Part shown: positions 8,324 through 55,892 of the stretch, piece by piece
Layout of the letters: every line of letters starts with the position of its first letter
How positions within the stretch are numbered: position 1 is the first letter of the stretch
Origin: Dictyostelium discoideum
Taxonomy: Eukaryota
DNA: 64,000 nt
Direction of reading: 5' to 3'
Assembly (NCBI GenBank): GCA_000004695.1
Contig: CM000150.2
Coordinates: 768,001 to 832,000 of the forward strand
Position numbers and translations under genes: made by a program
The notes under the pieces: model-generated
What the model was told of the DNA's origin: nothing
Database searches by the model: none
Seen by the model: only the letters and a program-made list of their open reading frames with translations

Positions 8324-10240
8324 TTATTTAGAAATTTGAGTTGTTTGCATTGTACCATGAAGATGTTCTACAAATTTATGTAAATCTGTTTTTGAAACTT
8401 CAACAATTGATGTATCAAATGATTGATATTTAAATGTTGCATCTGTATATTCAGCTGATTTTCTAAAATATTCACCAAATGTACTATTATTATAATAAAA
8501 TGTAAAAAGGTTATTATTATTTATTATTATTTATTAATTTAATATTTTATTATTTACTTACTTTGATTGAATATCAGTACTATGTGAACCAGAAATACCA
8601 ACAATTAAATAAGAATTTTTATTTTCATTTAAAGCACCAATTAAGAAAGGTCTTTTAGCTTTACCCATTGAAATGAAAGCATCCATCATGAATAAACCTA
8701 ATTTAGTTAGTGCCAATGGATGAATGAAATATTTTAAATCTGAAGATTCTGTGATGAATGCATATCTGAATGGACCAGACAAGATAACACTACGTTTTTC
8801 AATCATTGAAGTTACTTGACGAGTGATTTCCTTTTGTAATTGAATCGATTGTTTTAAACCAATCTTTAATAGATCAATATTTTTATTTGAGATTGAGTCA
8901 TAAGCTTCCCAAAAATTTTGTTCCCAAATGTCTTGATCCGATTGATCCGATTCTAAATTATCAGACTCCATTAACGCGGTCACTGCATAAACTGTATCTG
9001 ACGCTGATATTTCTGAATTGTTTGAATACTTTTTAAGAAAACTATTGAAATATAAATTCACCAAACCAAACTTTGGGCCGTTGATAGCGAGTAGTTGTTT
9101 CAACTGTTTCTTGTAATGGACATTCATCGAGTTGTACTTTTGCTTCACCTGGTCCAACGGTATGCCCATCATTGCGAATAACGACTCGAGCTGGAACCTG
9201 CCTTTGGCTTTCCAGACCCTGAGTTTGCATGCAACATAACGCGAGTTGAATAATGATTCGTAAAGATTCCAATGTCTGTAAAGCATGAATCTGAAATCGT
9301 CACTTGGTATAATCTTATCGCCATGCAAGAACATTGACGATGGATGTCTCTTTAAATCCCCATTTTCGTCATAATCATCCTCGTCATTACCTGGCCTATA
9401 TCTTTCTTCTTGGTCATCATCGCCATCGGTTGGATAATTATTTAAAATTAATTCTTTAAAATTTTTATATTGTTGTTCATAAGAGTCTAATGTAATCTTT
9501 TCATGAATGAATTGATCTGTTAAACCCAATACTGCATACCATAATAGATCATCTAAATTTTGTTTATTTAAAAATGTACTTAATGAATACATTGAAACTG
9601 CTGCACTCTTTCCATAATAAGTTTTTTCAAGTTTTTCACTCTTTTTCTTCTTTTTCTTTCTATGTTTTCTTTTACTTTTTTTATCTTTTTTATTCTTTTT
9701 TTTACTCTTTCTTTCATTTTCATCAATATTTTCACTACCACCATCATCTTCATCATTTTCTGGATTATCTTCATTTTCTGGATCAAACTCAGCTTCTTCT
9801 GCTTCTTCTGCTTCTTCTGCTTCTTCAGCTTCTTCTGCTTCATCTTCAACAACATCTTCTTCAGCTTCTTCTTCCTCTAATTCCTCTTCCTCTTCTTCAC
9901 TATCATCAGATAATTGTTGTAATTCATCTTGTTCAATATAAGTACCATCATCAATGATGAGTACAGATGATTCATTGGTAATATTATTGATAGAGTATGG
10001 TCTATGACTATCAATGATATATGCAACTTGTTGATCATTTAAATTTGTAAATACATTTGTTATATCAATATTACCACCACAATTGATCATTATAATAGAT
10101 TTAATCTCTTCATTCTCTAAAAGTGTTGAATTTACATTCTCTAAATCTTCATATCCTGATACTGCTTTAATATTATATGCTATTAAATCTGATTTTAAAA
10201 TTTCCTATTAGAATTTAATTTTATTAGGCAGAGAGAGGAG

Positions 10241-10919: not shown

Positions 10920-11965
10920 ATGCCTAAACAATTAAAATACTTGAAATTGAATTACTACTATAATGAACCAATTATTGAAAATCAATTCCCAATGGGTTTA
11001 CAAGGGTATTTATTGAATTTGGTAATTCATTCGATCAATAAATTGATAATAATTTACCAAATTCAATAAATACTATTAAATTCCCAATTGATTCTTATTT
11101 TAAAAAAAGAATAAATTCAAATAAAATCATTAACAAAGCTAAATTTATCAAAATCATATGATTCATCATTAATAGATGGTGTATTACCAAATTCTATTTT
11201 AAAATTAAAATTTTCAAATTATACAAATAAATCAATTCTACATACTAGATTAGAATTTAAAATATTTGAAAAGGATGGTAACATATCCCTAAATAATCAA
11301 TTATCAAAATTTATAAACAATTTATCAATAATACCACCATCTGTTACTAAATTATCAATATTCTATGGTTATGAACAAGTTATTCCCTATCAAATTAAAT
11401 ATATGCATTTAGAATTCTCAAGAAATAACCAATATGATCATTATTATAAACAATTATTATATAATAATGGTGATGGTGATAATAAAATTAAATCATTAAA
11501 TATTATTTCATTACTTGAAAATAAACCATTAGATATTTATTATGAAAATAATTTTAATTGTTTTAATGGTTTAATTAATTTAAATTTATCAAATTTTGAA
11601 TACAAGTCATTTAAAAAACCAATAAAACGATTTACTTCATTTGTAAATTTTAAAATGTTTAAGTCTTGGTGAATTTTAATCATCACTAAATCAGAATTCA
11701 TTACCAGAAACTTTAGAATTATTAGAACTTGGTAAAAATTTCAAACAACCAATTAATAAAAAATGGTTACCACCTTCAATTAAATATATTATAATTAATG
11801 ATATTAATACTCCAATTTCAATTGGAGATTTACCAAATTCATTAATTTCAATTTGGATTAGAGATAATCATTATCAATTAAAACATTTTAAATATTTTAC
11901 TCCATTACTTGGTAAACTTAAAATTGTTGATAGAATTAATATCTTTAATATAAAAGAATTTTAAG
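10920..11965 (+). pseudogene. Degenerate FNIP-repeat gene copy (paralogue of the 3' half of the gene at 27721..29355) with multiple frame disruptions
   Basis: Four collinear coding-like segments lie in three different frames and are separated by stops: MPKQLKYLKLNYYYNEPIIEN...; NNLPNSINTIKFPIDSYF...; ...LSIIPPSVTKLSIFYGYEQ...SNFEYKSFKKPIKRFTSFVNFKMFKSW*; and SLNQNSLPETLELLELGKNFKQPINKKWLPPSIKYIIINDINTPISIGDLPNSLISIWIRDNHYQLKHFKYFTPLLGKLKIVDRINIFNIKEF*. The last two align residue-for-residue with MIPPSVTNLTIFYNSFHGQ...SEFYYKSYTKPVKDF...SNTLPQQLELLELGLEFKQPVHKKWLPISIKHIIILNDETPISINSLPPNSLESIWISNKHYQLNN...LLPLIGKLNIVESELINKIF of the 27721 gene. The C-to-D frame change sits in a 25-bp stretch that cannot be a canonical intron. 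Confidence 0.45.
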
Positions 11966-12147
11966 AAAAAAGTATGAAATTAATTATTAAATTAAATTTT
12001 AAATAAAAAAAAAAAAAAAAAAAAAAAAAATAAAATAAAAAAAATAAAAATGAAAATAAAATTTAAATTTAAATTTTCACATTTTCGCGCGTTTCGTTTT
12101 TTAATTTTTTTTTTTTTTTTTTTTTTTATTTTTTTTAACATTACAAT

Positions 12148-12575
12148 TTGTTTTTAAAAAAAAATAATATTAAATTAATGGAATATTTTATAGGATATGA
12201 AGAAACCTTTAAAGAAATTGAAAAATTTGGTAAAGAATATCCAAAAGAAAAATTATTAAAATTTATTAGAGAGTTTTCATTAAATTGGGTAAATCAAAGA
12301 GATATTTCAAATGAACAATTAAAAATATTAAAGAAATCTTTAAATGATCTCATTGAAAATGATAAAGAAAGAACATTATTAGAAAATAGAATAATTCAAA
12401 TGTGTCCAAACTATGTTATAGCTAATTTTAGTGTTGATGAATATCCTAAAATTTATTTAGAATTTATTAAAGATTATTTAACATGTAATGAAAGTTTAAA
12501 CCTTTTTGGTAAAGTTGGTAATATTTTAGTATTATTAAAAAAGAATTTAAAAAATTTTAATAAGGTCAGTATATA

Positions 12576-12629
<54 letters not shown>

Positions 12630-15237
12630 TATAAATAAATTTTTAATATTAATTTTTTTTTTTTTTTTTTTTTTTTCCTTTAAACAGAAATTATCAATTG
12701 AAATTATAAATTTATTATTTGAATTAAATCATAATTTAATAAATAAAGAAAAAGGAAAAGAAAAAGAAATTTCAGATGATAGTAATAGTAATAATAATAA
12801 TAATAATAATGAAGAAATTTTAATTGAAAATGAAATGGGAAATTCTAAATTATTAGATTCAATTAGTTTATTAAATTGTTTATTATTATTTAAAGAAATA
12901 ATTGGTAAAGAAGGATATCAAGGTGAAATTAAAGAGAATATTTTAACTTTATTTAATGGTTTATATGAATTAATTATACCAACTGATGATGAAGTTGAAA
13001 GATTTGGAATTTCAATACCATTTGAAAATTTAATATTTTTAATAACCTTATTTCAAGATTACCCAAATAGAGCAGTTTATTTGAATTTATTATTAAAATT
13101 TGTATATTTTTTTGAATGTATTCAAACCACACGATATTTTCAAATTAAATATCAAAATGAATTATTAGAAGCTATAAATTGTGAAAAAGTATTATTTGGT
13201 AAAAAAGAATCATTCCCATTGGTTCAATCATTAGTTGAACAATTATTAAAACATTGTAAATTTGATGTTTTTAAATTACAAGGTTTTTTAATATCAATTA
13301 ATAGAAATAGTTATAATGAATATTTTAAATATATTTTCTCAATAGTTGAATTTGATTTAATTTTACCAATAATTCAATCATCATTTCCAACTATAAATGG
13401 AAAACAAATTATAAAAGAAATTTTAGAAAATAAAAATTTTGAATTTCAACTTTCAAATAATAATAATTCAAATAATAATAATAATAATAATTTAAATAAT
13501 AATAATTCAAATAATAATAATAATAATACAGATAATAATAATAATAATATTTTCACTAATATTATTGGTATTGATGAAGGTGAAATTCATAATATTGGTA
13601 TTGGTGTTAGTGGTGTTGGTAATAGTGATTTTATTAAATTAGTTGATAGATTTGATAAATCGTTAGAATCATTCTTTAGAATTGAAAATTATTATAAAGG
13701 TGCAAATAGTAAAGTTGAGAAAAAGTTTTTAAAGAAAACTTATGAAGAAATTTTCAAACAATTAAATGAAACTAAATCAATCAATTCATCAAGTTATTTA
13801 GAGTCTTTATTTTTTAAATTGGATCAATTTCCAATTAAATTTAAATTTATAAAAAAAAGATTAAATTTTATTTTATCACAATTGGATTTATATTCAATTA
13901 ATAATATTTTAAATAATAATAATAATGTATTAAAAAATGAAATTTTAGAAAATTCAATTTATATTGAAAAAGTTAGATTGGAGAATGAAAGAAAAGAGAA
14001 ATTACCAAGTTTTGAAATTGAGTCATTGGATATGATGCCAGTTGAAATTATTGAATACATAGTAAAGTTTTTAATTGATAGTCCAGAAATGGATCAGTGT
14101 AGGAAATTTCAATTATCTTTACTTTCGAAAGATTTCTTTAGAATGGTGCAATCGATAATGAATAGGTCAATTGATAATCCGATTGAGTTGAAGTTTAATC
14201 ATTTCTTTCATCACGGTACAAATGGTGATGATGATGAATTTAATTTATTACAAAAGAAACAAGTCTCATATTTAAAGTATTGGTCTAGACCGCATTATAT
14301 TGAAACCGATGATTTCGATAGTTTTCTATACAGGTTGAATGTGGTTGACAGTTTTAGAGATTGGGGTCACATCATTAGTTATACCAATCAATTGAAATTG
14401 GTTGCGTTCGATTTCCAAGGTGAATTAGACCACATCTATTTAGATTATTTAAAAAGTAATAAAACTATTCAAAAATTAATCATTAGAACTACTTCAACAA
14501 ATGCAAATCAATTATCTCAACAAATTATTGAAATGGTGAATGAGAAACAACAAGTTGACATTCATTTACATATTGATGTAAAAGAGGAAGAACCAAATAT
14601 AAACTATAGAATTAACTTTGATTTAATTCAAGGTTGTACTGTTGGTATTGGTCAATTCTTTGATGAAGATTTCTATAAGAATTGTTTACCAAAAATAAAA
14701 GAACTCACTATACTAATTGAACAATGGGATCCACATAATAGTTCTTCCTTTGAAACTGTACCAATTATTGATACATTTTTAAAGAATATTAAATCAACAA
14801 CAACAACGCCAACACCATCCCCAACATCATTTTCACTAAATCTTTCAAATTTAACAAATCTAACATTTCAATTCAATACATTTGATTCAGGTTTTGATTA
14901 TTTTGATAAATTAATTAAATTATTTATTGGAAATGCTTCAAATTTAAAAACTATAACTTTTGAAAATCCTGGAGGTGGCGATAGATGTAGTAAACCTAAA
15001 AAAGTTATTGCAAATATTTTAAAATCTGTATCTTTTCAAGCTCAACACTTTCCTTCTTTATCTTTCATTAAAATATTTAAATCTTCAAACATTACAATGT
15101 TTGAAGATTTAAATGATGAAAAGGATTGGTATAAAATTAATACTTTTAAATTTTTACCAGAACCAAATTTTATTATTTTTAATTTAATTAAAAATAATAA
15201 TAATAATAATAGTAAAAGAAAATTTGAAGAGATATAA
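12148..15237 (+). CDS. Hypothetical protein (~988 aa, N-rich; no recognisable domain); join(12148..12564,12688..15237)
   Basis: ORF 12148 ends NLKNFNK at a GTCAGT donor (12565). A 123-bp AT-rich intron with (TA)n and a T-run ends at AG 12686/12687. Exon 2 (KLSIEIINLLFELNHNLINKEKGKEKEISDDSNSNNNNNNNEEILIENE-MGNSKLL...) runs in frame into ORF 12835..15237. No catalytic motifs are recognised. Confidence 0.6.
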
Positions 15238-15551
15238 AAATAAATTTTATTTTTTTAAAAAAAAAAACAAAATAAAATAAATAAATAAAAAAAAAATAAT
15301 CTTCATATAATCTAAATTCGATCGGAGTTTGATTTCAAAGAAATTTTTTCCAGATTTTTAGATTTTTTTTATTTTTAATTTTTTTTTTTTTTTATTTTTA
15401 ATTTTATTTTTGATTGGAACATTGTTCGAAATAAAAAAATCTATTTTTATTTTTTTTTTTTTTTTATTTTTTTTCAAAAAAATTTCAAAGCCTTGAAATC
15501 GATTTCTATTGGTTTTATTGTAATATTAATATTTTATTACATTATTCCATC

Positions 15552-16006
15552 ATGGAAGAAAGTAGTTATGATAATTTTAATATTAATAAATTTAATATTA
15601 ATTTAAATAAAGTTGGTGATGATGATGATAATAATAATAATAACAATATCGTAAATAATAATAATATTATTTATCCCATAAATGATATAAATAATGAAAA
15701 TAAAGGAAATACTAAAACTGGTGGGTTTTTAGAAAATATTAAAATTACAGATCAAGATAATTCATTAGGTGAAGAGAATTATGATTTGGAAATAAATTAT
15801 GAAGTCGTTTTGGTATTTGATAAATCTAAAAAAGTAGTAAGCGACGATCCAAAGTTAACTTGGGATATTATTATAAAAAAAACAATGAAAATATTAAAAG
15901 AATTAAATCTGTATTCAGTTTTAAAAGTTGGTACACTTGATGAAAATCATATTTTTATAATTGTTGGTACAACTGATGAATTGTTTGTATTTTATTTATT
16001 TTTTGG

Positions 16007-16045
<39 letters not shown>

Positions 16046-18233
16046 TTTATTAAAATTAAATAAAATTTATAGGTTAAGACATTATTGTATTGATAATTAT
16101 ATTCAAATTCAAAAGAAAATTGTAACGGAAACAACAAGAATTTCAGAATCAATGCGTTTACATTTAGTTGAAACAATTTTAATTAATTCAAATGATTTAA
16201 AGTATATATATGATGATGATTTTGTTATTGATAAATATCCATATGCAAATAAAAATTTTGAAACACTTAAAAGAGAATGTCAAAAGAAATGGTTTTTTCA
16301 ATCATTAGATATCAACGTTATTAAAGATTATTTTGGTGAGGAAGTTACATTTTATTTTTTATTTTTAAGTATGTAGATTTTAAAAAAAAAAACTAATATT
16401 AGTTTATTTGTTGTTGAAATTATTAATATTATTAAAAAAAAAAAAAAAAAAAAAGGATTTTATAATGTTGGTTTAGGTATTGTTAGTTTATTTGGTTTAG
16501 CAGTTGCAATTGTATCATATACAAGAGATTCATATAAATTTGCAAGTTCATCATTTTCAATAGCATTGGCAGTTTTATCAACATTATTTTTTGAAATTTG
16601 GAAACGTTATGGATCAATTTATTCATGGAAATGGGATCAAGAAGATTACATTGATGATGAGGAACAATTACCATCATTTAAACCAGGTAATTTCTCTGAA
16701 GGTGTTTATCATAAAGGAATCTTTTTAAAATCAAAACATTTTGGTAAAAAAGTTAAATACGTTCAAAAGAATATTACAACTAGACCTTATTTAACAAGTT
16801 ATCAACAAAAAATGAAACTTCTTAAAACCATTGGTACCTTTTCAGTGGTTGTAACATTAGTTTTAATTGTACCAATTTTTACAATTTCAATTTTCACCCT
16901 TAGAATAGCCTTAGAATCAATTGAAAATAAAACAGTTGAAAGTGGTATTGGTTCAGTAATAAATGCATTGTTCATTCTATTCTTCAATTTTATTTATAAA
17001 AATATTGCATATTTTTTAACTAAATTTGAATCTCATAGAGTCGCTTCTTCATTTAATGCAAGTTATTCAACCAAACTTTTCCTATTCCAATTTGTAAACA
17101 GTTTTTCAGGTTTATTTTATATTGCATTCCTTAAAAATAATGTTTATTTATGGGGTGATATTGATTTAGAAGATACATGTAGTACTCCAAATAAAATTGA
17201 TGGTTTATGGAAAGGTTGTACAGAAGATTTACAATTTCAATTATTTTCAATTTTAGCTGTTAACTTTATTGCTTCAATTTTCTCTGAATTATTAGGACCG
17301 TATGTAATCATTATTATTTTTAATTTTAAATTAACTATTAATTAATTAACCATATCTTATTATTATTATTATTATAATTATTATTAGTTGGATTCAATAT
17401 TATATTAAAATTATAAGACAAAAACCAACAGGATTTAGAGAGAAAATTGAACCATTTGAACAACAATTTTATAGAGATACATTTGATACATTTCAAGAGT
17501 TTAATCAAATTATTATTCAATTTTCATATATATCAATGTTTAGTGCTGCATCACCAATTTCACCAATAATTTCATTCTTTCATAATATATTTGAAGAAAG
17601 AGTTGATAGTTATAAATTAATTAATTCATTAAGAAGAGTAATATCTATATCTATAATTTTATTAAAATAATAATAATAATAATAATTTTATTAATTTAAT
17701 TTTTTATTTTTATTTTTATTTTTATTTAGCCAAATTATAATGGTTCAAATGGATTAGGTAGTTGGTTTTTTATTATTGTTTTAGTTGGAATGTTTTCAGT
17801 ATTAACAAATGTTTTATTAATTGGATTTTCATTCCCAACTTTATTATATTTTACAGATTCTCCATATAATGTATTATGGATTGTATTTATTTTAGAACAT
17901 TTAGTAATTTTAACAAAGGTAGTTTTAGCAAAAGCAATTCCAGATGAAACTAAAAAATTAAAGAAAAAGAAAGCATCATTAGATTTAATCACAAAATCAA
18001 TTATGGAAAATGATAGAGAACTTTCAAAATTATTAATTGAAAAAATTAAATCCAATGAAATTCCATTAACAAATGATATCAATCCAGATAGTAATCAAAA
18101 TAATATTATACCAACTCCATTCACTTCAAAAACTAGACAACGTGCATTATCAATCTCTTCAAAAATTTCAAAAACAATGCATTCTGTAATTAATATAAAA
18201 CATGATGTTGATTATGAAGATGAAAATAAATAA
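15552..18233 (+). CDS. Anoctamin / TMEM16-family protein (Ca-activated channel/scramblase family); join(15552..16368,16456..17299,17388..17637,17730..18233)
   Basis: Exon 1 ends ...IKDYFGEEVTFYFLFL (the typical anoctamin pre-TM1 motif) with a GTATGT donor at 16369. Exon 2 (R-FYNVGLGIVSLFGLAVAIV...FEIWKRYGSIYSWKWD...KLFLFQFVNSFSGLFYIAFL...) carries the conserved anoctamin FxFQFVNxYxxLFYIAF block and ends at a GTATGT donor (17300). Exon 3 (...DTFQEFNQIIIQFSYISMFSAASPISPIISFFHNIFEERVDSYKLINSLRR) matches anoctamin EMVLQFGFVTIFVAAFPLAPL...IRLDAxK and ends at GTAATA (17638). Exon 4 is PNYNGSNGLGSWFFIIVLVG...FILEHLVILTKVVLAKAIPDE.... Exon 1 has an A37-38 run (16010-16047) that may be a missed intron. 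Confidence 0.75.
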
Positions 18234-18321
18234 ATAAAATTTCACTAAACATTTAAATGTTAGGTGGTTGATATTATAGTAACAATTAATATATAACATA
18301 ATTAAATTATAATACATATTT

Positions 18322-20000
<1,679 letters not shown>

Positions 20001-20306
20001 ATTTTATCTTTTTTTATTACTATTATTATTATTATTATTATTTTGAAATGCGATATAGGATAGTTTATCTCAGTTTGAAATTAAATAAAAAAATTAAAAA
20101 AAAAAAAAAATAAATGAAAAAAAAAAAATAAAAAAAAAAAAATAAAAATAAAAAAGAAATTAAAATTAATTTTTTTTGGGAAATTTGGATGGGTGTTTAT
20201 TGTTTATTATAATAATAAAAATCCAATCGTTTTGGTATTGAAAAACACAAAATTGGTGTTTGGTTGATTTTATTTTTATTTTTTTATTTTTATTTTAATT
20301 TAGATA

Positions 20307-20933
20307 TTACATTTTAAAAATTCTATAACCAACAATATCTTGATATGTATAATATGATTTTGTAAAACCAGGATCATTAACATACACATAATCAGATTCA
20401 GTTGTATCATAACCAGTTGCTAAAACGAAATGTGAACCTTGATTTACATTAATTATTAAAATTAAATCTTTTTTATTTAACATTGAAATGATATCATCCA
20501 TTGTATATTGTGAAGATGGAAATGAACCAACATAATTAATTTTATTTGAAACATTTTCTAATGATGATTCAACTAATAAATTATCACCTTCATAACCACT
20601 ATTACTCTTTAACCATGTATTCAATGAACCTGGATTTGAAATTCCATCATCAATTGTAATACCTTTACCTCCAATTGCCATCGAACATGAAGACATTAAA
20701 CAACCAACATCACAAATTGTTTCTGTAATAATTAAATCATTACCCCAACGTGAATCACACTTTTAAAATAAATAAATAAATAAATAAATACAATACACTA
20801 AATTTGTTTTTTTTTTTTATTTTTCAAAAAAATAACCTACTTGTTTATAAAGTGGATATGAAAATGGAATAACTGGTTTTGATGATACATTTCCAATTAT
20901 AAGGATAATAGCTAAAAATAAAAATAATTTCAT
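20307..20933 (-). CDS. Secreted papain-like / peptidase C39-like domain protein (signal peptide + Cys/His catalytic-type motifs); join(20933..20841,20759..20307)
   Basis: Exon 1 is MKLFLFLAIILIIGNVSSKPVIPFSYPLYKQ, a hydrophobic signal peptide, with a GTAGGT donor at 20840. The 81-bp intron ends at AG 20761/20760. Exon 2 is CDSRWGNDLIITETICDVGCLMSSCSMAIGGKG...NQGSHFVLATGYDTTESDYVYVNDPGF.... A Cys in a CxxxSC context and the later GSHFVLATGYD histidine block resemble the papain/C39-like peptidase fold. This is inference from motifs only. Confidence 0.45.
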
Positions 20934-21208
20934 TTTTTTTTTTTTTAATTAATATTAATTTTTTATATTTTTAAATTAAAAATAAAAACCTTTCCAAATT
21001 TTGAAAAAAAAAAAATAAAAAAAATAAAATAAAATATTTTTTATTAAAAATATCTAAAATGAATCTTTGGAATTTTTAAAAATACCTCAAAGATCCTGGT
21101 AAATAAAAAAATAAAATAATATCTTGTTCATTTTTTTTTTTTTAACAAGCGACCTTTGGTAATGTAATTTTTTTTTTTTTTTTTTATTTATCTTTTTTTT
21201 TTTTATTT

Positions 21209-21976
21209 TTAACACAAAGAATTTGCTTTTAATGAAAATTTATCAAAGGTTGTGTTTGGAAGATTTAATTTTGAAAGTTCAAGTTTTACCCATTTTTTTG
21301 ATTTTTGAATTGCAAATTCATATTCAATTTTTTCATTTGGGAAAAGTTTTATTATTTTTGAAATTACTATTAAGGTAACCCAAATATTATATAATTGATC
21401 TGATGATAATTCCACAGGTGCATTACCAATTGAAATTCCCATTTGAGAAATGGTTGACTTTGTCCATGATCCATTTGCTCTTTGAATTCTTAACAAATCA
21501 ATTAAATCAAATGATGATGATGATTTTGTCTTGGATGATGTTGTTTTTGTAGTTTCTTCTTTGGTTTCACTTTTCTTTGATTTTTTAACAGACTGTCTTG
21601 AAATATCTTCATCTACATCGGAAAATCTTTTTTTTGTAATTGTTGTTGTTGTTGTTGTTGTTGGTGCTGCGGTTTTACTTTTCTTAGATTTGGTTAACAG
21701 ACATTGTGATTTATTTTTAGTTGCACTAACTTGATTTTCAAAACTAAACTGATCAATTATGTCAATGAAATCCATAGATTCTAAAGTTGGTTTAGTTGAT
21801 TCACACTTAACAATGAATGAGGTATGTTTTGAAAGTATTCCATACTTTTTACTCAATTCAACAATTCTAGTTTTATTATCTTTTTTTTTCTTTCTTTCTT
21901 TCTCTTCTAAATCTTTAATTTGATGATATGCTGATAATCTATGAATTTGATTTTGATTTGTTGTTGCTGTTGTTGT

Positions 21977-50478: not shown

Positions 50479-50726
50479 TGTTTTTTCCATTTTACCCTAA
50501 AAAAGATTCATTTTAAAAAAAAAATAAAAAAAAATTTAAAACTAGATGTTTTTTGGGTGAATATTTATATATATTGAAATAAGTTTGTTTATTTTATATC
50601 TTCTTTGGTAGGTTGTTTTGTTTTTTTTTTTTTCCAAAAGAATTACAATATTCATGAAATTTAAATTTTCAACCAAAAAAAATTTTTGCTAACCAAATTT
50701 TATATTAAAAATAAAGTTTCATCAAA

Positions 50727-50808
50727 GACATCGTAGCGAAGTGGTCTAACGCGTTTGACTTGAAATCAAATCTCCTAGGAGGCGCAGGTTCGAACCCTGC
50801 CGATGTCG
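50727..50808 (+). tRNA. tRNA-Ser (anticodon UGA), 82 nt
   Basis: Cloverleaf fold: acceptor GACATCG/CGATGTC, D-arm GCG-AAGTGGTCTAA-CGC, anticodon stem TTTGA/TCAAA with loop CTTGAAA (anticodon TGA), a long variable arm TCTCCTAGGAGGC, T-arm GCAGG-TTCGAAC-CCTGC and discriminator G. A T6 pol III terminator follows (50811-50817). Confidence 0.9.
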
Positions 50809-50831
50809 ATCTTTTTTAAGATGTATTCCAG

Positions 50832-50850
50832 AGGTCAGGGGTTCAACTCT
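50832..50850 (+). promoter_or_regulatory. External B box (ex-B) downstream of tRNA-Ser copy 1
   Basis: AGGTCAGGGGTTCAACTCT lies 24-42 bp past the tRNA 3' end. It resembles the internal B box GGTTCGAAC. Ex-B boxes are characteristic of Dictyostelium tRNA genes. Confidence 0.55.
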
Positions 50851-50920
50851 TTAATTAAATAAAATTAACATGGAAAAAATCCATCAAAACCCCGCTATAA
50901 AAAAAATTAAAAATAAACAA

Positions 50921-50992
50921 GTTTCGATAGCTCAGTGGAAGAGCAAGCGACTGCAAATCGTTAGGTCGCCAGTTCAATCCTGGTTCGGAACT
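50921..50992 (+). tRNA. tRNA-Cys (anticodon GCA), 72 nt
   Basis: Cloverleaf fold: acceptor GTTTCGA/TCGGAAC (one G-U), D-arm GCTC-AGTGGAA-GAGC, anticodon stem AGCGA/TCGTT with loop CTGCAAA (anticodon GCA), variable AGGTC, T-arm GCCAG-TTCAATC-CTGGT and discriminator U73 (a Cys identity element). A T-run follows. Confidence 0.9.
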
Positions 50993-50999
50993 TTCATTT

Positions 51000-51777
51000 T
51001 GTTTCTCTTATATTTTCCCGAACTTCGAATTTTAAACTTTATTGATAAAATCCATAATTGGGAAAGTAGGACCCAAAAAAAAGACAGCCAAAAAAGATCA
51101 AGAAGTGAATGCAGATTACGCCAACCACAGATTCCACAAAGAATACTTTGAATGGAACTATAAAGCAATAGACTATGATCTAACCAGATCATTCGCATAT
51201 AGAAACCTAATGGCCCTTATCCTCCACAACATTTGGATTTGGATTTGCAATCAAATATACAGTGAAGATCCTTTAACAGATGAATCACTATCATACAGCT
51301 CCCTTCTAAAGAAATGGCACAAATTGGCCACTCTAGAATACATCAAAAAAGCAAAAGATCTGAAAAACTTATCAGCAAAAGACCATAATAACTTCAAAGA
51401 TCCTAAGATCCTTCTCACTTCAACGATCAAGCTAAGAAAAACAACAGCTAATTACTATTGTATTCCAGAATCATCTCTCCCAAATATTATATCTTTTGAT
51501 CAATTCATATGATTAAAATAACCCTTCAGCTTAAATGATAAGACTTTAAATAAATATTAAATAAAACTCGTATTAACACAAAAAAAAAAAAAAAAAAAAA
51601 AAAAAAGATACAGAAAAACATATCCATCATCAATCTAACATCAACTCCCAAATATTATATCTTTTGATCAATTCATATGATTAAAATAACCCTTCAGCTT
51701 AAATGATAAGCCTTTAAATAAATATTAAATAAAACTCGTATTAACACAGATGGACATATATCAATCTTGTTAATCCA

Positions 51778-51817
<40 letters not shown>
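51000..51817 (+). mobile_element. 5'-truncated tRNA-gene-targeted non-LTR retrotransposon remnant (TRE3-like 3' end): ORF2 C-terminal fragment + two ~104-bp direct repeats, each followed by oligo(A)
   Basis: It begins ~10-50 bp downstream of tRNA-Cys. ORF 51042..51512 (156 aa, no host-gene similarity) stops just before repeat R1 (51477..51579). After R1 comes A27 (51581-51607), a 38-bp spacer, repeat R2 (51646..51749, one mismatch versus R1), a 33-bp tail and A34 (51783-51816). This layout matches the C-module/oligo(A) 3' end of Dictyostelium TRE elements, which insert next to tRNA genes. Confidence 0.5.
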
Positions 51818-51822
<5 letters not shown>

Positions 51823-52113
51823 AAATGAAAAAACCCCACAAAAAAAAAAAAAATCTAAAAATAACAAAATATGGGCTATTGCTATAAAATTAAACAAGCA
51901 AAAAATAAAAAAAATTAAAAAAATTATCAAATTAACAAAAAAGTTATTTTTTTTTTTTTATTTAAAATTTCCAATTTTTTATCAAAAAAAAAATATCTTT
52001 TTTATAATTTAAACACATTAAAAATATTTTTTACATTTATGCTAAAAGAATTATTTTTTTTATTTATATATTTTTTTCAAAAATTATTTTTTAATATAGA
52101 AATAAATAATTAA

Positions 52114-52161
52114 ATGATAAAAGAAAACAATAAAAATATTAATAGCGATAATAATAATAAT

Positions 52162-52211
<50 letters not shown>

Positions 52212-53706
52212 TGTTCAAATTCCAATTTATATACAAAAAAAAATATATAAATATTTAATTATAATGGAATTAAATAAGAGTGATCATGATTCTTATGAAA
52301 TCAATTCAAAGATGATTGAAAAATTTTCACTTTTATCATGGGAATGGTTTAATTTTATTTCATCAAAAATTTATCACACTTTAATTATCAAAGATTATCA
52401 AAGACTTGAACCATTAAGAACCAAAGATAATGATAATAAATTTTTATTAAAAAAACCAGAATCTGTAAAATATTTAAAATTAGTTAACATTAGTAAATTA
52501 AATGAAGAAAAAGTGAATGAAACTATAAAATCATTGGTAAATTTAAAATGGATAACTTCAGAGCACAATAATTCAATATTTCAAAAAATTAAATTTAAAA
52601 ATATTAGAATCAATAGTATGATTCTCAGAAAATATGAAGGACAGCTTCTTGATCATTATGTTAAACGAGTTGATTTTCTTCATATTGAATCTCAAACACA
52701 AACTAAAAATATTATTGAAGCGTTTAAAACTTCAAAAATTTATGGATTCAATCTAGAGTTAAAACAAAATTACTCTCAATTTAATATTACTAAATTTCCT
52801 TGGAAAGATTTAATAGAGTGTCAAGTTCCATCTGTAAATGTACAAACAAATAAAAGTTGTGTTACTGATGTTGTTGAACAGCAACAACAACAAATGGTCA
52901 ACATTGAAAGTATAACTACTGAAAATAGATTACAATGGTGTAAAGATGTTAAATTTTGTATTTTAAATGTTAAAATGTTAAATGAATTTTTAAAATCAAC
53001 ACCAAGATTAAGAGATTTAACCATTGGTATTTGCTTTTCAAATTTAATTTATAAACTTTATAAAAGATATAGTTCAAACTATGATGAAGATGAACCAAAC
53101 GTTTTAAAACCATGTAGTTGCTCAAATTCATTTGAAAGATGTTTTACTACGGAGATTGAAAATTCAAGAGTTGTTTGTTATGATGATTTATTCTCTGTTT
53201 ATTGGGATGAAATTTGTACAATGTTAATAAATCATAAAAATTTGACAATATTAACCATTACCGATAGATGTTTCAATGATAGAAAAATAAGATATGATGG
53301 TATTGAAGATGTAATTACACCACAACTATCAACTCCTGTAATAACAACATTGGAACAAAATCAACACTTTTTCCAATCATTTGTTAATTTAATATGTTCA
53401 ACAAATAAATCAATTAAAACTTTGGTTATTAATGCATATGATTTCGTTCAATTAGATATAGTATCCATTTTAAATAACTCTAATAGTACCATAGATACCT
53501 ATCATTTCTCTTTCAATGTTTCAACTGATAAAATATACCATACTAAATCTATTGAAAAGGTTACAGAATACTTTAATAAATCACCAAATAATATAATCAA
53601 ATCTTTTAAAATTACAAATAATTCTCATACTGAATTTAACTATAATCAATCTATAAAAAGAACTTTACCAATTAAATACAATTCAATTCTTTTAAACTTT
53701 AAATAA
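52114..53706 (+). CDS. Hypothetical protein (530 aa; N-rich N-terminus, Cys-containing, no recognised domain)
   Basis: A single long ORF with Dictyostelium-type codon usage and an N25 tract near the N-terminus. No RT/integrase/kinase motifs are recognisable. It lies between the TRE remnant and the inverted tRNA-Ser copy. Confidence 0.5.
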
Positions 53707-54292
53707 AATTTTACAAAAATTTCGATAATAATTAGTATAAAATGTTTGACATACCTTTTAATATATGTTCTTTTAAATTTATAAAAACAAATTATTTTTA
53801 ACATATTAATAAAAAAAAATTTTTTTTTTTTTTTAATATTGATTTAAGGAATAAACTGTAATTATAAGGTTTATTTATGAATTTTTAATTTTTTAAAATG
53901 TAATTAATATTTTGGTTTAGATTTAAATATAGGTATTATTACTTTTGATTATCTATTACAAAAATTTTATTTTTTAAAAAAGATGATGTTTTTATTACAG
54001 TTATTATTTATTCACTTTTAAAACTAAAAAAAATGAATAATAGTTGCTTTTTTAATATATTCCAGAGCCTCTAGTGTGCTCCATTCATTAATAAGGATTG
54101 AGAATGATAGTTTTCTCCTTTGCACACCAAACCCAGATTAAATCAATTATTTTCTCACAATGTAAGATATAATAAAATTATATTGTTTATAAGTTTTTTA
54201 TAATCATATTAATAATATTAATAATTATAATAATGATTAAAATTAAACAATATTTAATAAATTAATATTTTGTTGATCAATGTTGCCAAAAA

Positions 54293-54310
54293 GAGTCGAA
54301 CCCTTGACCT
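54293..54310 (-). promoter_or_regulatory. External B box (ex-B) downstream of tRNA-Ser copy 2
   Basis: The minus strand reads AGGTCAAGGGTTCGACTC, 22-39 bp past the tRNA 3' end at 54332. It is preceded by the T6 terminator. Confidence 0.55.
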
Positions 54311-54331
54311 TAAGTCTCTTTATAAAAAAGA

Positions 54332-54413
54332 TCGACATCGGCAGGGTTCGAACCTGCGCCTCCTAGGAGATTTGATTTCAAGTCAAACGCGTTAGACCAC
54401 TTCGCTACGATGT
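54332..54413 (-). tRNA. tRNA-Ser (anticodon UGA), second copy, inverted relative to 50727..50808
   Basis: The 82-nt mature sequence is the exact reverse complement of the first copy. About 45 bp of 5' flank are also similar (..AAATTTTATATT.AAA.....TTTCATC.AAGACATCG). Confidence 0.9.
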
Positions 54414-55892
54414 CTTCGATGAAAAATGAATTTCAATATAAAATTTAGTTGGCTAATCATTTTTCGATGGTGAATCAGAATTTCTTTTCGATAAAACATT
54501 AGGTTTGAAAATTTTTTTGTGATAATTTTGAAAAATAACTTACATATAAACTTTATTTGTTTTTTATTAAACTTATGGCAACATATTTTCTTACAATTAT
54601 TCTTTTATTTTTATAGTATATTTATAATTTATTAAAATATATACATTAAAATAAAATTAATATTATTTAATATACAAAAATATAAATAATTTATTTATTA
54701 TTAATTAAATAACATTTGATGATAAAATCTAAAATCAAATTTTTATTGCAAATTAATTTAATTATTTATTGAAATTTTTAAGAATAATTTATGTAAAAAT
54801 ATATAAATTGATCCTTCATTAATGATATAGTTTGATTTATTAATTTTAATGAATTAATAAAAACATTAATAATAATAATTGTTGATGAAATTAATAAGTA
54901 ATCTTATTTTTTATGTAAGAAATTTGAAAACAATTTAAAAAAATTAAAAAAAAAAAATGAAGAAACTATAATTTAACTAGTAAAATATATAAAATAAAAA
55001 TAATTATTTTCATTAAAATTTTTATTTTATTTCATACTTAATATTACAATAAATAGTATTTCAATAAATAATTGTAAATTTGAAATAATGAAATTTAAAA
55101 ATAAAAATAATATTTATGATTGGTTTAAAAGATATATTGGATTTAATAAAAAAAATAAAAAAAATAAAAAAAATAAAAAAAAATAAAAAAACAAAAAAAT
55201 TAAAAGTCGAATTATGAAGTAATATATATAACTCTCCAATGAGATATTTAAAATAATTGTAAATTTGTTTTTACAATAAAAATTTGATTAAAATGTAAAA
55301 ATTTACAAATGTTAAAATAAAACTATTATTTAAAAATTATTTAATTCCAAAAAAAAAAAAAAACTAAATTTTTAACCATTTTAAAAATTTTAAGGATAAT
55401 ATGTTCAACCCCATTTATTGTGAATGTCAATAACAATAAATAATAAACCATTTTTGGGATAATTGTAAATACTATCTCAGATTTAAAAAAGATAAGATGA
55501 TCTATGAAGAATATTAGTAGCATTGATGATACGATAAATTTGTAATTTTAGTAATTAGTATTTTTTTTTAAATATATTAAATTGTAGTTTGTGCAAATGA
55601 TGGTTCAAATTTGTGAGAAGAACATATTAAAAAATTTCAAATTTAAATGAAAAGGGTGTTAAAAGTAATTACACAATTATAAAGAATATAAATATATATA
55701 TATATATGTATAAAAATAATACCACCACATTATAAGCATATAAATTCAATCATTATAATTTTTTTATTTATTTTTTAATTATTTTTTTTGTTTATTTCAA
55801 AATATACGTACATTTCCTAACAATAAATTTATTGCCATTTATATTAAAATTTTAAAAAATTATTCATTACCACAAGGAAAAAAAAAAAAAAT

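What the first reader, a model, noticed from the sequence alone, without database searches (positions are those of the whole stretch)
50727..54413. Inverted pair of identical tRNA-Ser(UGA) genes bracketing tRNA-Cys, a TRE remnant and a hypothetical gene
Two 82-nt tRNA-Ser(UGA) genes at 50727..50808 (+) and 54332..54413 (-) are exact reverse complements. Each keeps its T-run terminator and an ex-B box 20-40 bp downstream, and about 45 bp of 5' flank are also related. Together they enclose a 3.5-kb segment containing tRNA-Cys, a retroelement 3' end and the 530-aa ORF 52114..53706. The arrangement suggests an inverted segmental duplication or rearrangement nucleated at tRNA genes, possibly mediated by tRNA-targeted retroelements.
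Basis: seen in the sequence. Interest (0 to 1): 0.5.

Follow-up and report, generated by a model that had tools for sequence, protein, structure and literature searches.

The report
Paired tRNA-Ser genes flanking one gene
Two identical serine-tRNA genes sit in opposite orientation on either side of a small conserved Dictyostelium gene; this is an old, tRNA-gene-sized duplication of a kind already reported for this genome, and the retrotransposon scrap between them arrived later, so the finding is real but ordinary.

Summary
Perfect identity runs 94 bp. About 45-50 bp of 5' flank is truly homologous (33/42 identical; chance mean 15.4, maximum 28). Each copy has a T6 terminator and an ex-B box.

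Nothing else in the 3.5-kb interval is duplicated, so this is a tRNA-unit duplication, not a segmental one.

The window is Dictyostelium discoideum. A second D. discoideum assembly has the same structure. The sibling 'D. cf. discoideum' has the same inverted pair around the orthologous gene but no retroelement, so the pair predates the TRE insertion.

D. dimigraforme has two Ser(UGA) genes around the orthologue in direct orientation. D. firmibasis has only the left copy within the 10 kb fetched. None was found in the partly non-syntenic D. purpureum locus.

The retroelement is a 5'-truncated TRE3-type non-LTR remnant about 78 bp downstream of tRNA-Cys on the same strand, the canonical TRE3 position.

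Same-anticodon tRNA pairs a few kb apart are a published feature of this genome, and two more turned up by chance here. Verdict: real, explained, low novelty.

The parts
50677..50726 (+). 5'-flank block of the left tRNA-Ser, shared with the right copy. It holds a TATA-like TTTATATT and the conserved TTTCATCAAA leader.
   Evidence: Inverted repeat I1. 33/42 identical at -42..-1 against a chance mean of 15.4 and maximum of 28. Gapped score 22 against a null of 7.5+-2.4.
50727..50808 (+). tRNA-Ser(UGA) gene, left copy. A box TAGCGAAGTGG at nt 8, B box GGTTCGAACCC at nt 61, long variable arm.
   Evidence: ARAGORN; Rfam RF00005 at 64.8 bits; boxes located. A copy sits at the orthologous position in L004, L001 and L002.
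50809..50818 (+). 3' trailer ATCTTTTTTA with the T6 Pol III terminator, identical in both copies.
50833..50849 (+). ex-B box of the left copy (GGTCAGGGGTTCAACTC).
   Evidence: Read from the sequence. The motif is conserved in all seven Ser(UGA) copies of four species. The ex-B concept is described in PMC5911963.
50921..50992 (+). tRNA-Cys(GCA) gene, 112 bp downstream of the left tRNA-Ser.
   Evidence: Rfam at 61.4 bits; ARAGORN gives 50920-50993. The orthologous position in L004 carries the same gene with a 23-bp internal deletion. It is absent from L001 and L002.
51070..51644 (+). 5'-truncated TRE3-type non-LTR retrotransposon remnant: the C-terminal end of ORF2 (about 51063-51512), the 3' UTR, and an internal A27 run at 51580-51606.
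   Evidence: 19 fragment homologues in D. discoideum, D. citrinum and D. dimigraforme. 45% aa identity to the C-terminal ORF of a D. firmibasis element that adjoins an RVT_1 ORF. Absent from L004. It starts about 78 bp downstream of tRNA-Cys on the same strand.
51645..51817 (+). Second TRE3 3' end. 104 nt are 99% identical to 51477-51580. It has the canonical ...TTAATCCAATATT end followed by A35.
   Evidence: Direct repeat D19. The 3'-end structure matches the copies in L006 and L007.
52114..53706 (+). Single-copy 530-aa protein gene of unknown function, restricted to the Dictyostelium species sampled.
   Evidence: ORF listed. Orthologues are 93% (cf. discoideum), 67% (firmibasis), 68% (dimigraforme) and 48% (purpureum) identical. 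No Pfam or PDB match. The AlphaFold model has low confidence, pLDDT 46.
54076..54290 (.). Segment of about 215 bp specific to D. discoideum, just distal to the ex-B box of the right copy. Origin unknown.
   Evidence: L004 has only about 23 bp here. No significant match elsewhere in the window or in the fetched loci.
54293..54309 (-). ex-B box of the right copy (GGTCAAGGGTTCGACTC).
54323..54332 (-). 3' trailer with T6 terminator of the right copy.
54333..54414 (-). tRNA-Ser(UGA) gene, right copy, the exact reverse complement of the left copy.
54415..54464 (-). 5'-flank block of the right copy, homologous to 50677-50726.

Best explanation
This is a locus of the Dictyostelium discoideum nuclear genome. 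Two apparently complete Pol III-transcribed tRNA-Ser(UGA) genes bracket a conserved single-copy protein gene.

Each tRNA unit has five parts:
- a roughly 45-bp upstream block with a TATA-like element and leader
- the gene itself, with internal A and B boxes
- a T6 terminator
- a spacer
- an external B box

The left copy is ancestral. A copy lies in the same position in four species.

The right, inverted copy most likely arose by a small DNA-level duplication of just this tRNA unit, roughly -50 to +45. Gene conversion from the left copy is the alternative source. Either event happened in the common ancestor of D. discoideum and D. cf. discoideum, after the split from D. dimigraforme and D. firmibasis.

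The tRNA sequence has since been kept identical by purifying selection. Occasional conversion may have helped.

tRNA-Cys was added 112 bp downstream of the left copy in the same ancestor. Later, in the D. discoideum lineage only, a TRE3-type non-LTR retrotransposon integrated by target-primed reverse transcription about 78 bp downstream of tRNA-Cys. It lies in the tRNA's orientation and has left two 5'-truncated 3' ends.

What is shown: the anatomy, the limits of homology, the presence or absence of each feature across species, and the TRE3-like position.

What is inferred: the source of the right copy, the timing, selection versus conversion, and the expression of both genes.

For: Identity and limits of homology:
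- establish the two genes and where their similarity ends.

Source organism and fixation:
- L005, a second D. discoideum assembly, is 99.5% identical over 24 kb and has the same three tRNAs and both TRE ends.

Age:
- L004 (D. cf. discoideum) has tRNA-Ser(UGA) at 9441-9522 (+) and 11985-12066 (-) around the orthologue. It has no TRE and carries a tRNA-Cys relic.

The left copy is ancestral:
- It is present upstream of the orthologue in D. firmibasis and D. dimigraforme, with conserved left synteny (GH85, PAC3, EF-hand genes).

The right copy belongs to the discoideum clade:
- The four discoideum and cf. discoideum 5' flanks cluster together, with scores of 22-30 against a null of 7.5+-2.4 and a null maximum of 19. 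Paralogues are as similar as orthologues.
- Ddis_L against Ddim_L scores 17 (z = 4).
- Ddis_R against Ddim_R scores 9 (z = 0.6), and the two have opposite orientation.
- Position 51 of the tRNA is A in all four copies of the discoideum clade and C in the three firmibasis and dimigraforme copies.

TRE3 behaviour:
- The literature rule is 40-150 bp downstream of a tRNA gene, in the same orientation (PMC5911963).
- Homologous fragments lie downstream of tRNA-Ile(AAU) on the same strand in L006 and L007, and downstream of tRNA-Ser(GCU) in L008.
- The D. firmibasis homologue lies next to an RVT_1 ORF.

Generality:
- The genome has 407 tRNA genes and 75 distinct sequences.
- Two further linked same-anticodon pairs seen by chance share a 5' flank of about 42 nt (Ile-AAU, which also shares the 3' flank through the ex-B box) and about 63 nt (Ser-GCU).
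Against: - No unlinked D. discoideum tRNA-Ser(UGA) locus could be examined. The -45 block might be shared family-wide, in which case the right copy need not derive from its neighbour.
- D. dimigraforme also has a second Ser(UGA) gene between the orthologue and the ABC1-kinase gene. An older pair followed by a local inversion plus conversion therefore cannot be excluded.
- Informative sites in the four flanks are too few. One site supports orthology and one supports within-species homogenisation, so duplication timing cannot be separated from gene conversion.
- The mechanism that copies a unit of about 140-190 bp in inverted orientation 3.5 kb away is not identified.
Confidence: 0.65

Rival explanations
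1. The pair is ancient and kept similar by gene conversion. Two Ser(UGA) genes already flanked the gene in the ancestor of D. discoideum and D. dimigraforme. One lineage inverted the right unit. Intrachromosomal gene conversion between the copies then keeps -50..+10 similar within each lineage.
For: - D. dimigraforme has a second Ser(UGA) gene in the same intergenic interval, between the orthologue and the ABC1 kinase gene.
- All four copies of the discoideum clade share the derived A51.
- The D. discoideum copies share an identical +1..+10 trailer that differs from both cf. discoideum orthologues.
- Within cf. discoideum the two paralogues are the most similar of all flank pairs (39/43).
Against: - There is no detectable flank homology between the right copies of D. 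discoideum and D. dimigraforme (z = 0.6).
- The D. dimigraforme copies are only weakly alike in their 5' flanks (score 14, z = 2.7), so conversion is not evident there.
- No inversion breakpoints can be seen.
Confidence: 0.2
2. The duplication or rearrangement was mediated by a retroelement. A TRE element copied or recombined the tRNA gene, for example by 5' transduction of a tRNA unit with a TRE3, or by ectopic recombination between TREs at two tRNA genes.
For: - The homology borders (about -50 and about +45) coincide with the TRE5 integration window (about -48) and the TRE3 window (+40 and beyond).
- The order tRNA-Ser, then tRNA-Cys, then TRE3, all on the + strand, has the topology expected of a 5'-transduced tRNA unit.
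Against: - D. cf. discoideum has the inverted pair and the tRNA-Cys relic but no TRE, with an empty-site alignment.
- The TRE is only the last ~570 bp of the element, so it is not joined to tRNA-Cys through an intact 5' end.
- No TRE-like coding sequence exists anywhere else in the 64-kb window.
- No poly(A) or target-site duplication borders the right tRNA unit.
Confidence: 0.07
3. The right copy was inserted from elsewhere in the genome. It came from an unlinked member of the Ser(UGA) family whose members all share the upstream block, so its resemblance to the neighbouring copy is incidental.
For: - Ser(UGA) is among the most expanded isoacceptor families, and family members are mostly identical.
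- The leader TTTCATCAA is present in six of the seven copies from four species. Ddis_R has TTTCATCGA.
Against: - Two other linked pairs (Ile-AAU and Ser-GCU) also share long flanks, which fits local duplication as the general process.
Confidence: 0.08

Closest known systems
Same-anticodon tRNA gene pairs and triplets of the D. discoideum genome (genome paper, as cited in PMC8163159)
   Same: The anticodon is identical, the sequences are 100% identical, and the two genes are linked at kb scale. Two further examples (Ile-AAU, about 11 kb apart; Ser-GCU, 3 kb apart) were met by chance in the related loci. They share 5' flanks of about 42 and about 63 nt.
   Different: Here the pair is inverted, with the 3' ends facing inward, and it brackets exactly one conserved gene. 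The other two pairs seen here are direct. The original description could not be read, so its statements on orientation and distance were not compared.
TRE3 non-LTR retrotransposons of Dictyostelium (integration 40-150 bp downstream of tRNA genes, same orientation)
   Same: The remnant starts about 78 bp downstream of tRNA-Cys on the same strand. It is 5'-truncated, ends in A-runs, and its ORF is homologous to the C-terminal part of ORF2 of a reverse-transcriptase-encoding element.
   Different: Only about 750 bp remain, as two tandem 3' ends that are 99% identical over 104 nt. The subfamily (TRE3-A to TRE3-D) could not be assigned because no reference sequences were available.
External B box (ex-B) of dictyostelid tRNA genes
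   Same: A B-box-like motif lies about 25-40 bp past the gene in both copies. It is conserved in seven Ser(UGA) genes of four species.
   Different: Nothing unusual. The left copy has one deviation from the consensus (GGTTCAACTC instead of GGTTCGACTC).
tRNA genes as rearrangement or recombination hot spots in yeast and Entamoeba (discussed in PMC2652664)
   Same: Repeated tRNA genes in inverted orientation could in principle promote inversion of the 3.5-kb interval.
   Different: No inversion is seen. The enclosed gene has the same orientation relative to the left-flank genes in all five syntenic genomes examined.

Membership tests
Nuclear tRNA-Ser(UGA) gene (class II tRNA, Pol III type-2 promoter) | Cloverleaf with a long variable arm and a UGA anticodon | tested here: met
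   ARAGORN; Rfam RF00005 at 64.8 bits against a gathering score of 29; fold.
Nuclear tRNA-Ser(UGA) gene (class II tRNA, Pol III type-2 promoter) | Internal A and B boxes and an oligo-T terminator just downstream | tested here: met
   TAGCGAAGTGG at nt 8, GGTTCGAACCC at nt 61, and T6 at +4..+9 in both copies.
Nuclear tRNA-Ser(UGA) gene (class II tRNA, Pol III type-2 promoter) | Transcribed, processed and aminoacylated | not testable with these tools
   Literature reports 95.5% of D. discoideum tRNA genes in open chromatin in at least one stage (PMC13063481), but gives nothing specific to this locus.
Dictyostelid tRNA gene with an external B box | B-box-like motif a few tens of bp downstream of the gene | tested here: met
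   50833-50849 and 54293-54309. The GGTC..GGGTTCGA.TC motif is recognisable in all seven copies, with one or two deviations in some.
D. discoideum same-anticodon tRNA pair | Two genes with the same anticodon and identical sequence, closely linked | tested here: met
   The two genes are 100% identical with 3,524 bp between them. The phenomenon is cited in PMC8163159.
TRE3 non-LTR retrotransposon | Located 40-150 bp downstream of a tRNA gene in the same transcriptional orientation | tested here: met
   It starts at about 51070, 78 bp after tRNA-Cys, on the + strand. The same behaviour is seen for homologues in L006, L007 and L008. The rule comes from PMC5911963.
TRE3 non-LTR retrotransposon | ORF2 with endonuclease, reverse transcriptase and zinc-finger domains; poly(A) 3' end | tested here: inconclusive
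   Only the C-terminal ~150 aa survive, and they have no Pfam domain. The D. firmibasis homologue lies next to an RVT_1 ORF. A-runs of 27 and 35 nt are present.
TRE3 non-LTR retrotransposon | Assignment to subfamily TRE3-A, B, C or D by sequence | not testable with these tools
   No TRE reference sequences were available in the collections.
Inverted segmental duplication | Homology extends beyond the gene unit into neighbouring unique DNA | tested here: not met
   Homology ends at about -50 and at the ex-B box. No other inverted repeat apart from low-complexity runs was found.
Retroelement-mediated (transduced or retroposed) tRNA copy | The copy is contiguous with a retroelement or bordered by poly(A) and a target-site duplication | tested here: not met
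   The right unit has no such borders. The pair exists without the TRE in L004.

The most novel reading that the evidence does not exclude
The tRNA unit from about -50 to about +45 may behave as a discrete module that is copied or converted as a block. That interval is the span the literature gives between the TRE5 integration window (about -50) and the ex-B box / TRE3 window (from about +40). It would then explain why linked same-anticodon pairs in Dictyostelium (Ser-UGA here; Ile-AAU and Ser-GCU in other loci) share flanks of this order, 42-63 nt upstream, and why both discoideum-clade copies carry the same derived A51 and, in D. discoideum, an identical trailer. This would be Pol III-complex-bounded concerted evolution or duplication of tRNA genes.
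Probability: 0.1. Interest if true: 0.45.

Novelty: already known. Interest (0 to 1): 0.15.

Why it matters
It matters little on its own. The locus is a clean, datable example of how Dictyostelium tRNA genes multiply locally and how TRE3 elements later home in on them. The comparison across species gives an order of events:
- the left tRNA-Ser is ancestral
- the inverted copy and tRNA-Cys arose in the D. discoideum / cf. discoideum ancestor
- the TRE3 insertion happened in D. discoideum only

It also shows that the identity of the tRNA bodies is uninformative, while about 45 bp of upstream flank does carry historical signal. A genome-wide version of the same flank analysis could show whether tRNA pairs arise by local duplication or by conversion.

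Tried and rejected
- **5' transduction of tRNA-Cys by the TRE3.** Rejected. The TRE is 5'-truncated, and D. cf. discoideum has the tRNA-Cys relic with an empty TRE site.
- **Assembly artefact.** Rejected. Two D. discoideum assemblies and one sibling species share the inverted pair.
- **Paralogues of the 530-aa gene near other tRNA genes.** Two database searches, with and without the poly-Asn tract, found only four orthologue clusters.
- **Function of the 530-aa protein.** No Pfam match and no PDB sequence match with a 5-sequence profile. The AlphaFold model has a mean pLDDT of 46, too poor for a fold search. By eye there is an F-box-like IPIYIQKKIYKYL motif and an alternating strand/helix pattern. 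This is untested.
- **Other Ser(UGA) loci for flank comparison.** An exact-pattern scan of the metagenome contigs gave 0 hits. No D. discoideum genome collection was available.
- **Is the D. discoideum-specific 215 bp at 54076-54290 a solo LTR or other repeat?** No significant match in the window or the fetched loci beyond low-complexity AT.
- **Local inversion of the right copy relative to D. dimigraforme.** No breakpoint homology was detectable.
- **TE content of the extra 4.4 kb in D. dimigraforme.** No ORF of 70 aa or more with TE similarity.
- **The genome paper (Eichinger 2005).** It could not be read.
Full report
**1. The observation**

ARAGORN finds three tRNA genes in the 64-kb window:
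- tRNA-Ser(UGA) at 50727-50808 (+)
- tRNA-Cys(GCA) at 50920-50993 (+); Rfam places it at 50921-50992
- tRNA-Ser(UGA) at 54333-54414 (-)

Rfam's tRNA model scores both Ser genes at 64.8 bits and nothing else in 49.5-56.5 kb at E <= 0.1.

The two Ser genes are exact reverse complements. Perfect identity extends over 94 bp, 50725-50818 against 54323-54416, that is -2 to +10. They carry an A box (TAGCGAAGTGG) and a B box (GGTTCGAACCC). Both have the trailer ATCTTTTTTA with a T6 terminator. Both have an external B box, at 50833-50849 (GGTCAGGGGTTCAACTC) and at 54293-54309 (GGTCAAGGGTTCGACTC).

**2. Extent of the duplication**

The repeat finder gives a single meaningful inverted repeat: 142 nt at 92%, 50677-50818 against 54323-54464. 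Everything else is poly(A)/poly(T) or AT-rich low complexity.

In fixed register the 5' flank matches 7, 7, 10, 5 and 9 of 10 in the five bins from -50 to -1. Further out it falls to 1-6 of 10. The 3' flank is identical for +1..+10 and then shares only the ex-B motif.

The 33/42 identity at -42..-1 compares with a mean of 15.4 (sd 3.0) over 77,014 AT-rich 42-mers of the window; the best unrelated match is 28. The flank relatedness is therefore real, but the duplicated unit is only the tRNA gene with its immediate surroundings. Nothing else in the 3,524-bp interval or outside it is duplicated, so 'segmental duplication' does not describe it.

**3. Source organism and contents of the interval**

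The window is Dictyostelium discoideum. A 24-kb stretch of assembly GCA_054883475.1 is 99.5% identical to it and has the same three tRNAs, the same retroelement remnant and the same ORF (L005). The tRNA units with 60 bp on each side are identical in the two assemblies.

The 530-aa ORF (52114-53706) is a real, single-copy gene. Orthologue identities are:

| Species | aa identity |
|---|---|
| 'D. cf. discoideum' | 93% |
| D. firmibasis | 67% |
| D. dimigraforme | 68% |
| D. purpureum | 48% |

There are no paralogues, no Pfam domain and no PDB sequence relative. The AlphaFold model is of low confidence, pLDDT 46. Its function stays unknown.

**4. The retroelement**

The ORF fragment at about 51063-51512 has 19 fragmentary homologues annotated as hypothetical proteins in D. 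discoideum, D. citrinum and D. dimigraforme. It is 45% identical to the C-terminal ORF of a D. firmibasis element that lies directly next to a reverse-transcriptase (RVT_1) ORF.

It starts about 78 bp downstream of tRNA-Cys on the same strand. [quoted passage not shown] TRE5 elements sit about 50 bp upstream in the opposite orientation (PMC5911963; PMC5006619).

Homologous fragments in three other loci behave the same way:
- downstream of tRNA-Ile(AAU) on the same strand in L006 and L007
- downstream of tRNA-Ser(GCU) on the same strand in L008

The remnant consists of two tandem 3' ends. 51477-51580 and 51645-51748 are 99% identical. The second has the canonical ...TTAATCCAATATT end plus poly(A), as also seen in L006 and L007. 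No other TRE-like coding sequence occurs in the window.

**5. Comparative genomics, the decisive evidence**

Left-hand synteny (GH85 gene, PAC3, EF-hand protein) is conserved in D. cf. discoideum, D. dimigraforme and D. firmibasis.

- **D. cf. discoideum (L004, about 87% nt identity).**
  - It has the same inverted pair, 9441-9522 (+) and 11985-12066 (-), around the orthologue.
  - It has a tRNA-Cys with a 23-bp internal deletion at the orthologous place.
  - It has no TRE. The sequence aligns across an empty site.
  - It lacks about 215 bp (window 54076-54290) next to the right ex-B box.
- **D. dimigraforme (L002).**
  - It has Ser(UGA) genes on both sides of the orthologue, both on the + strand.
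  - There is an extra 4.4 kb before the right one.
  - Right-hand synteny to the ABC1-kinase gene is conserved.
- **D. firmibasis (L001).** It has only the left copy within the 10 kb fetched. To the right of the gene lies a cluster of two RT-encoding non-LTR elements and tRNA-like repeats.
- **D. purpureum (L003).** No tRNA was found in the fetched locus. Gene order there differs, and only about 2.6 kb upstream of the orthologue was available.

**6. Reading the flanks**

Gapped scores for -45..-1, against a null of 7.5+-2.4 with a maximum of 19 in 4,000 draws, are as follows.

| Comparison | Score |
|---|---|
| The four D. discoideum and cf. discoideum copies, all pairs | 22-30 |
| Ddis_L vs Ddim_L | 17 (z = 4) |
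| Ddis_R vs Ddim_R | 9 (z = 0.6) |
| Ddim_L vs Ddim_R | 14 (z = 2.7) |
| tRNA-Cys flank vs the Ser flanks (negative control) | 3-9 |

Among the four discoideum-clade copies, paralogues are as similar as orthologues. The Ddis_L vs Ddim_L score is an orthology signal.

tRNA position 51 is A in all four copies of the discoideum clade and C in the three others.

The simplest reading is this. The left copy is ancestral. The inverted right copy was generated from it (or converted by it) in the discoideum / cf. discoideum ancestor. The second dimigraforme copy is either independent or so old that its flank is unrecognisable.

Informative sites are too few to separate 'duplication just before speciation' from 'ongoing gene conversion'. 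One site favours each. The identical +1..+10 trailer in D. discoideum, which differs from both cf. discoideum orthologues, hints at conversion.

**7. How general this is**

D. discoideum has 407 tRNA genes but only 75 distinct sequences (PMC13063481), so 100% identity of the tRNA bodies carries no information. [quoted passage not shown]

Among the few extra loci fetched for the TRE test, two more such pairs appeared:
- Two tRNA-Ile(AAU) genes about 11 kb apart, inferred from the overlap of L007 and L006, which come from two different assemblies. They share about 42 nt of 5' flank and the 3' flank through the ex-B box.
- Two tRNA-Ser(GCU) genes 3 kb apart flanking a GH20 gene in D. citrinum. 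They share about 63 nt of 5' flank.

The present pair follows the same pattern, except that it is inverted.

**8. Mechanism and verdict**

Shown:
- two apparently complete Pol III transcription units bracket a conserved gene
- homology is confined to the unit
- the pair predates the D. discoideum / cf. discoideum split
- the TRE3 insertion is later and canonical

Inferred:
- small-scale DNA duplication or conversion of the unit
- purifying selection on the tRNA and its upstream block
- expression of both copies

The coincidence of the homology borders with the TRE5 and TRE3 integration windows is noted. It is more simply explained by constraint within the span between the upstream block and the ex-B box, and by turnover outside it.

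The finding is real, well explained, and of a kind already known. Interest is low.

Noticed in passing
L001 (D. firmibasis) 8960-9066, 9384-9607, 11941-12166, 12417-12642: At least seven copies of a ~105-nt tRNA-like unit. It has an A-box-like TAGCGTAGTGG, a B-box-like GGTTCGAGCC, and a 3' hairpin GGTCATACCACGAAGTAACGTGGTCA. The copies cluster around the left tRNA-Ser gene (one lies head-to-head about 65 bp upstream of it) and at the edge of a TRE cluster. Neither ARAGORN nor Rfam calls them tRNA at E<=1. They may be a tRNA-derived SINE-like repeat that targets tRNA genes. A different tRNA-like sequence lies about 50 bp upstream of the left tRNA-Ser in D. dimigraforme (L002, about 9335-9400). 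No copy occurs in the window.
   Followed up: partly
window 54047-54067 versus 50811-50833: CTTTTTTAATATATTCCAGAG, between the gene and the right tRNA, resembles the left copy's 3' trailer CTTTTTTAAGATGTATTCCAGAG on the same strand. The 10-mer TATTCCAGAG occurs exactly twice in the 64 kb. It could be chance, a short conversion patch, or a relic of an older direct-oriented trailer.
   Followed up: partly
window 54076-54290: A segment of about 215 bp present in D. discoideum but reduced to about 23 bp in D. cf. discoideum. It lies just distal to the ex-B box of the right tRNA-Ser, inside the TRE3/Skipper-2 integration window. Half of it is AT-rich low complexity. No match was found in the window or the fetched loci.
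   Followed up: partly
L004 (D. cf. discoideum) about 9630-9672: The tRNA-Cys(GCA) orthologue has lost 23 bp (the D arm and the 5' half of the anticodon stem) and is no longer called as a tRNA. It is a species-specific pseudogene, or possibly an assembly error.
   Followed up: partly
L007 5792-5865 and L006 6163-6236 (D. discoideum); L008 5078-5158 and 8120-8200 (D. citrinum): Two further linked same-anticodon pairs: tRNA-Ile(AAU) about 11 kb apart around the filamin gene region, and tRNA-Ser(GCU) 3 kb apart around a GH20 gene. Both pairs are in direct orientation. Pair members share about 42 and about 63 nt of 5' flank. Both Ile(AAU) genes and one of the two Ser(GCU) genes are followed by a TRE3-type fragment.
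   Followed up: partly
L001 (D. firmibasis) 12975-17709 (+) and 18082-21499 (-): Two non-LTR retrotransposons with long open reading frames (ORF1 plus an RVT_1-containing ORF2; the second runs off the locus end) lie tail to tail. They sit where D. discoideum has its right tRNA-Ser copy. No tRNA gene is detectable beside them within the fetched locus.
   Followed up: partly
window 52114-53706: The exact 530-aa translation of this window is not in the protein collection. Only a 480-aa Logan entry and the 528-aa cf. discoideum protein share its 90% cluster, although the same ORF is called as a 530-aa gene in assembly GCA_054883475.1. No D. discoideum AX4 entry was returned for it. Whether the reference annotates the gene was not checked.
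   Followed up: no
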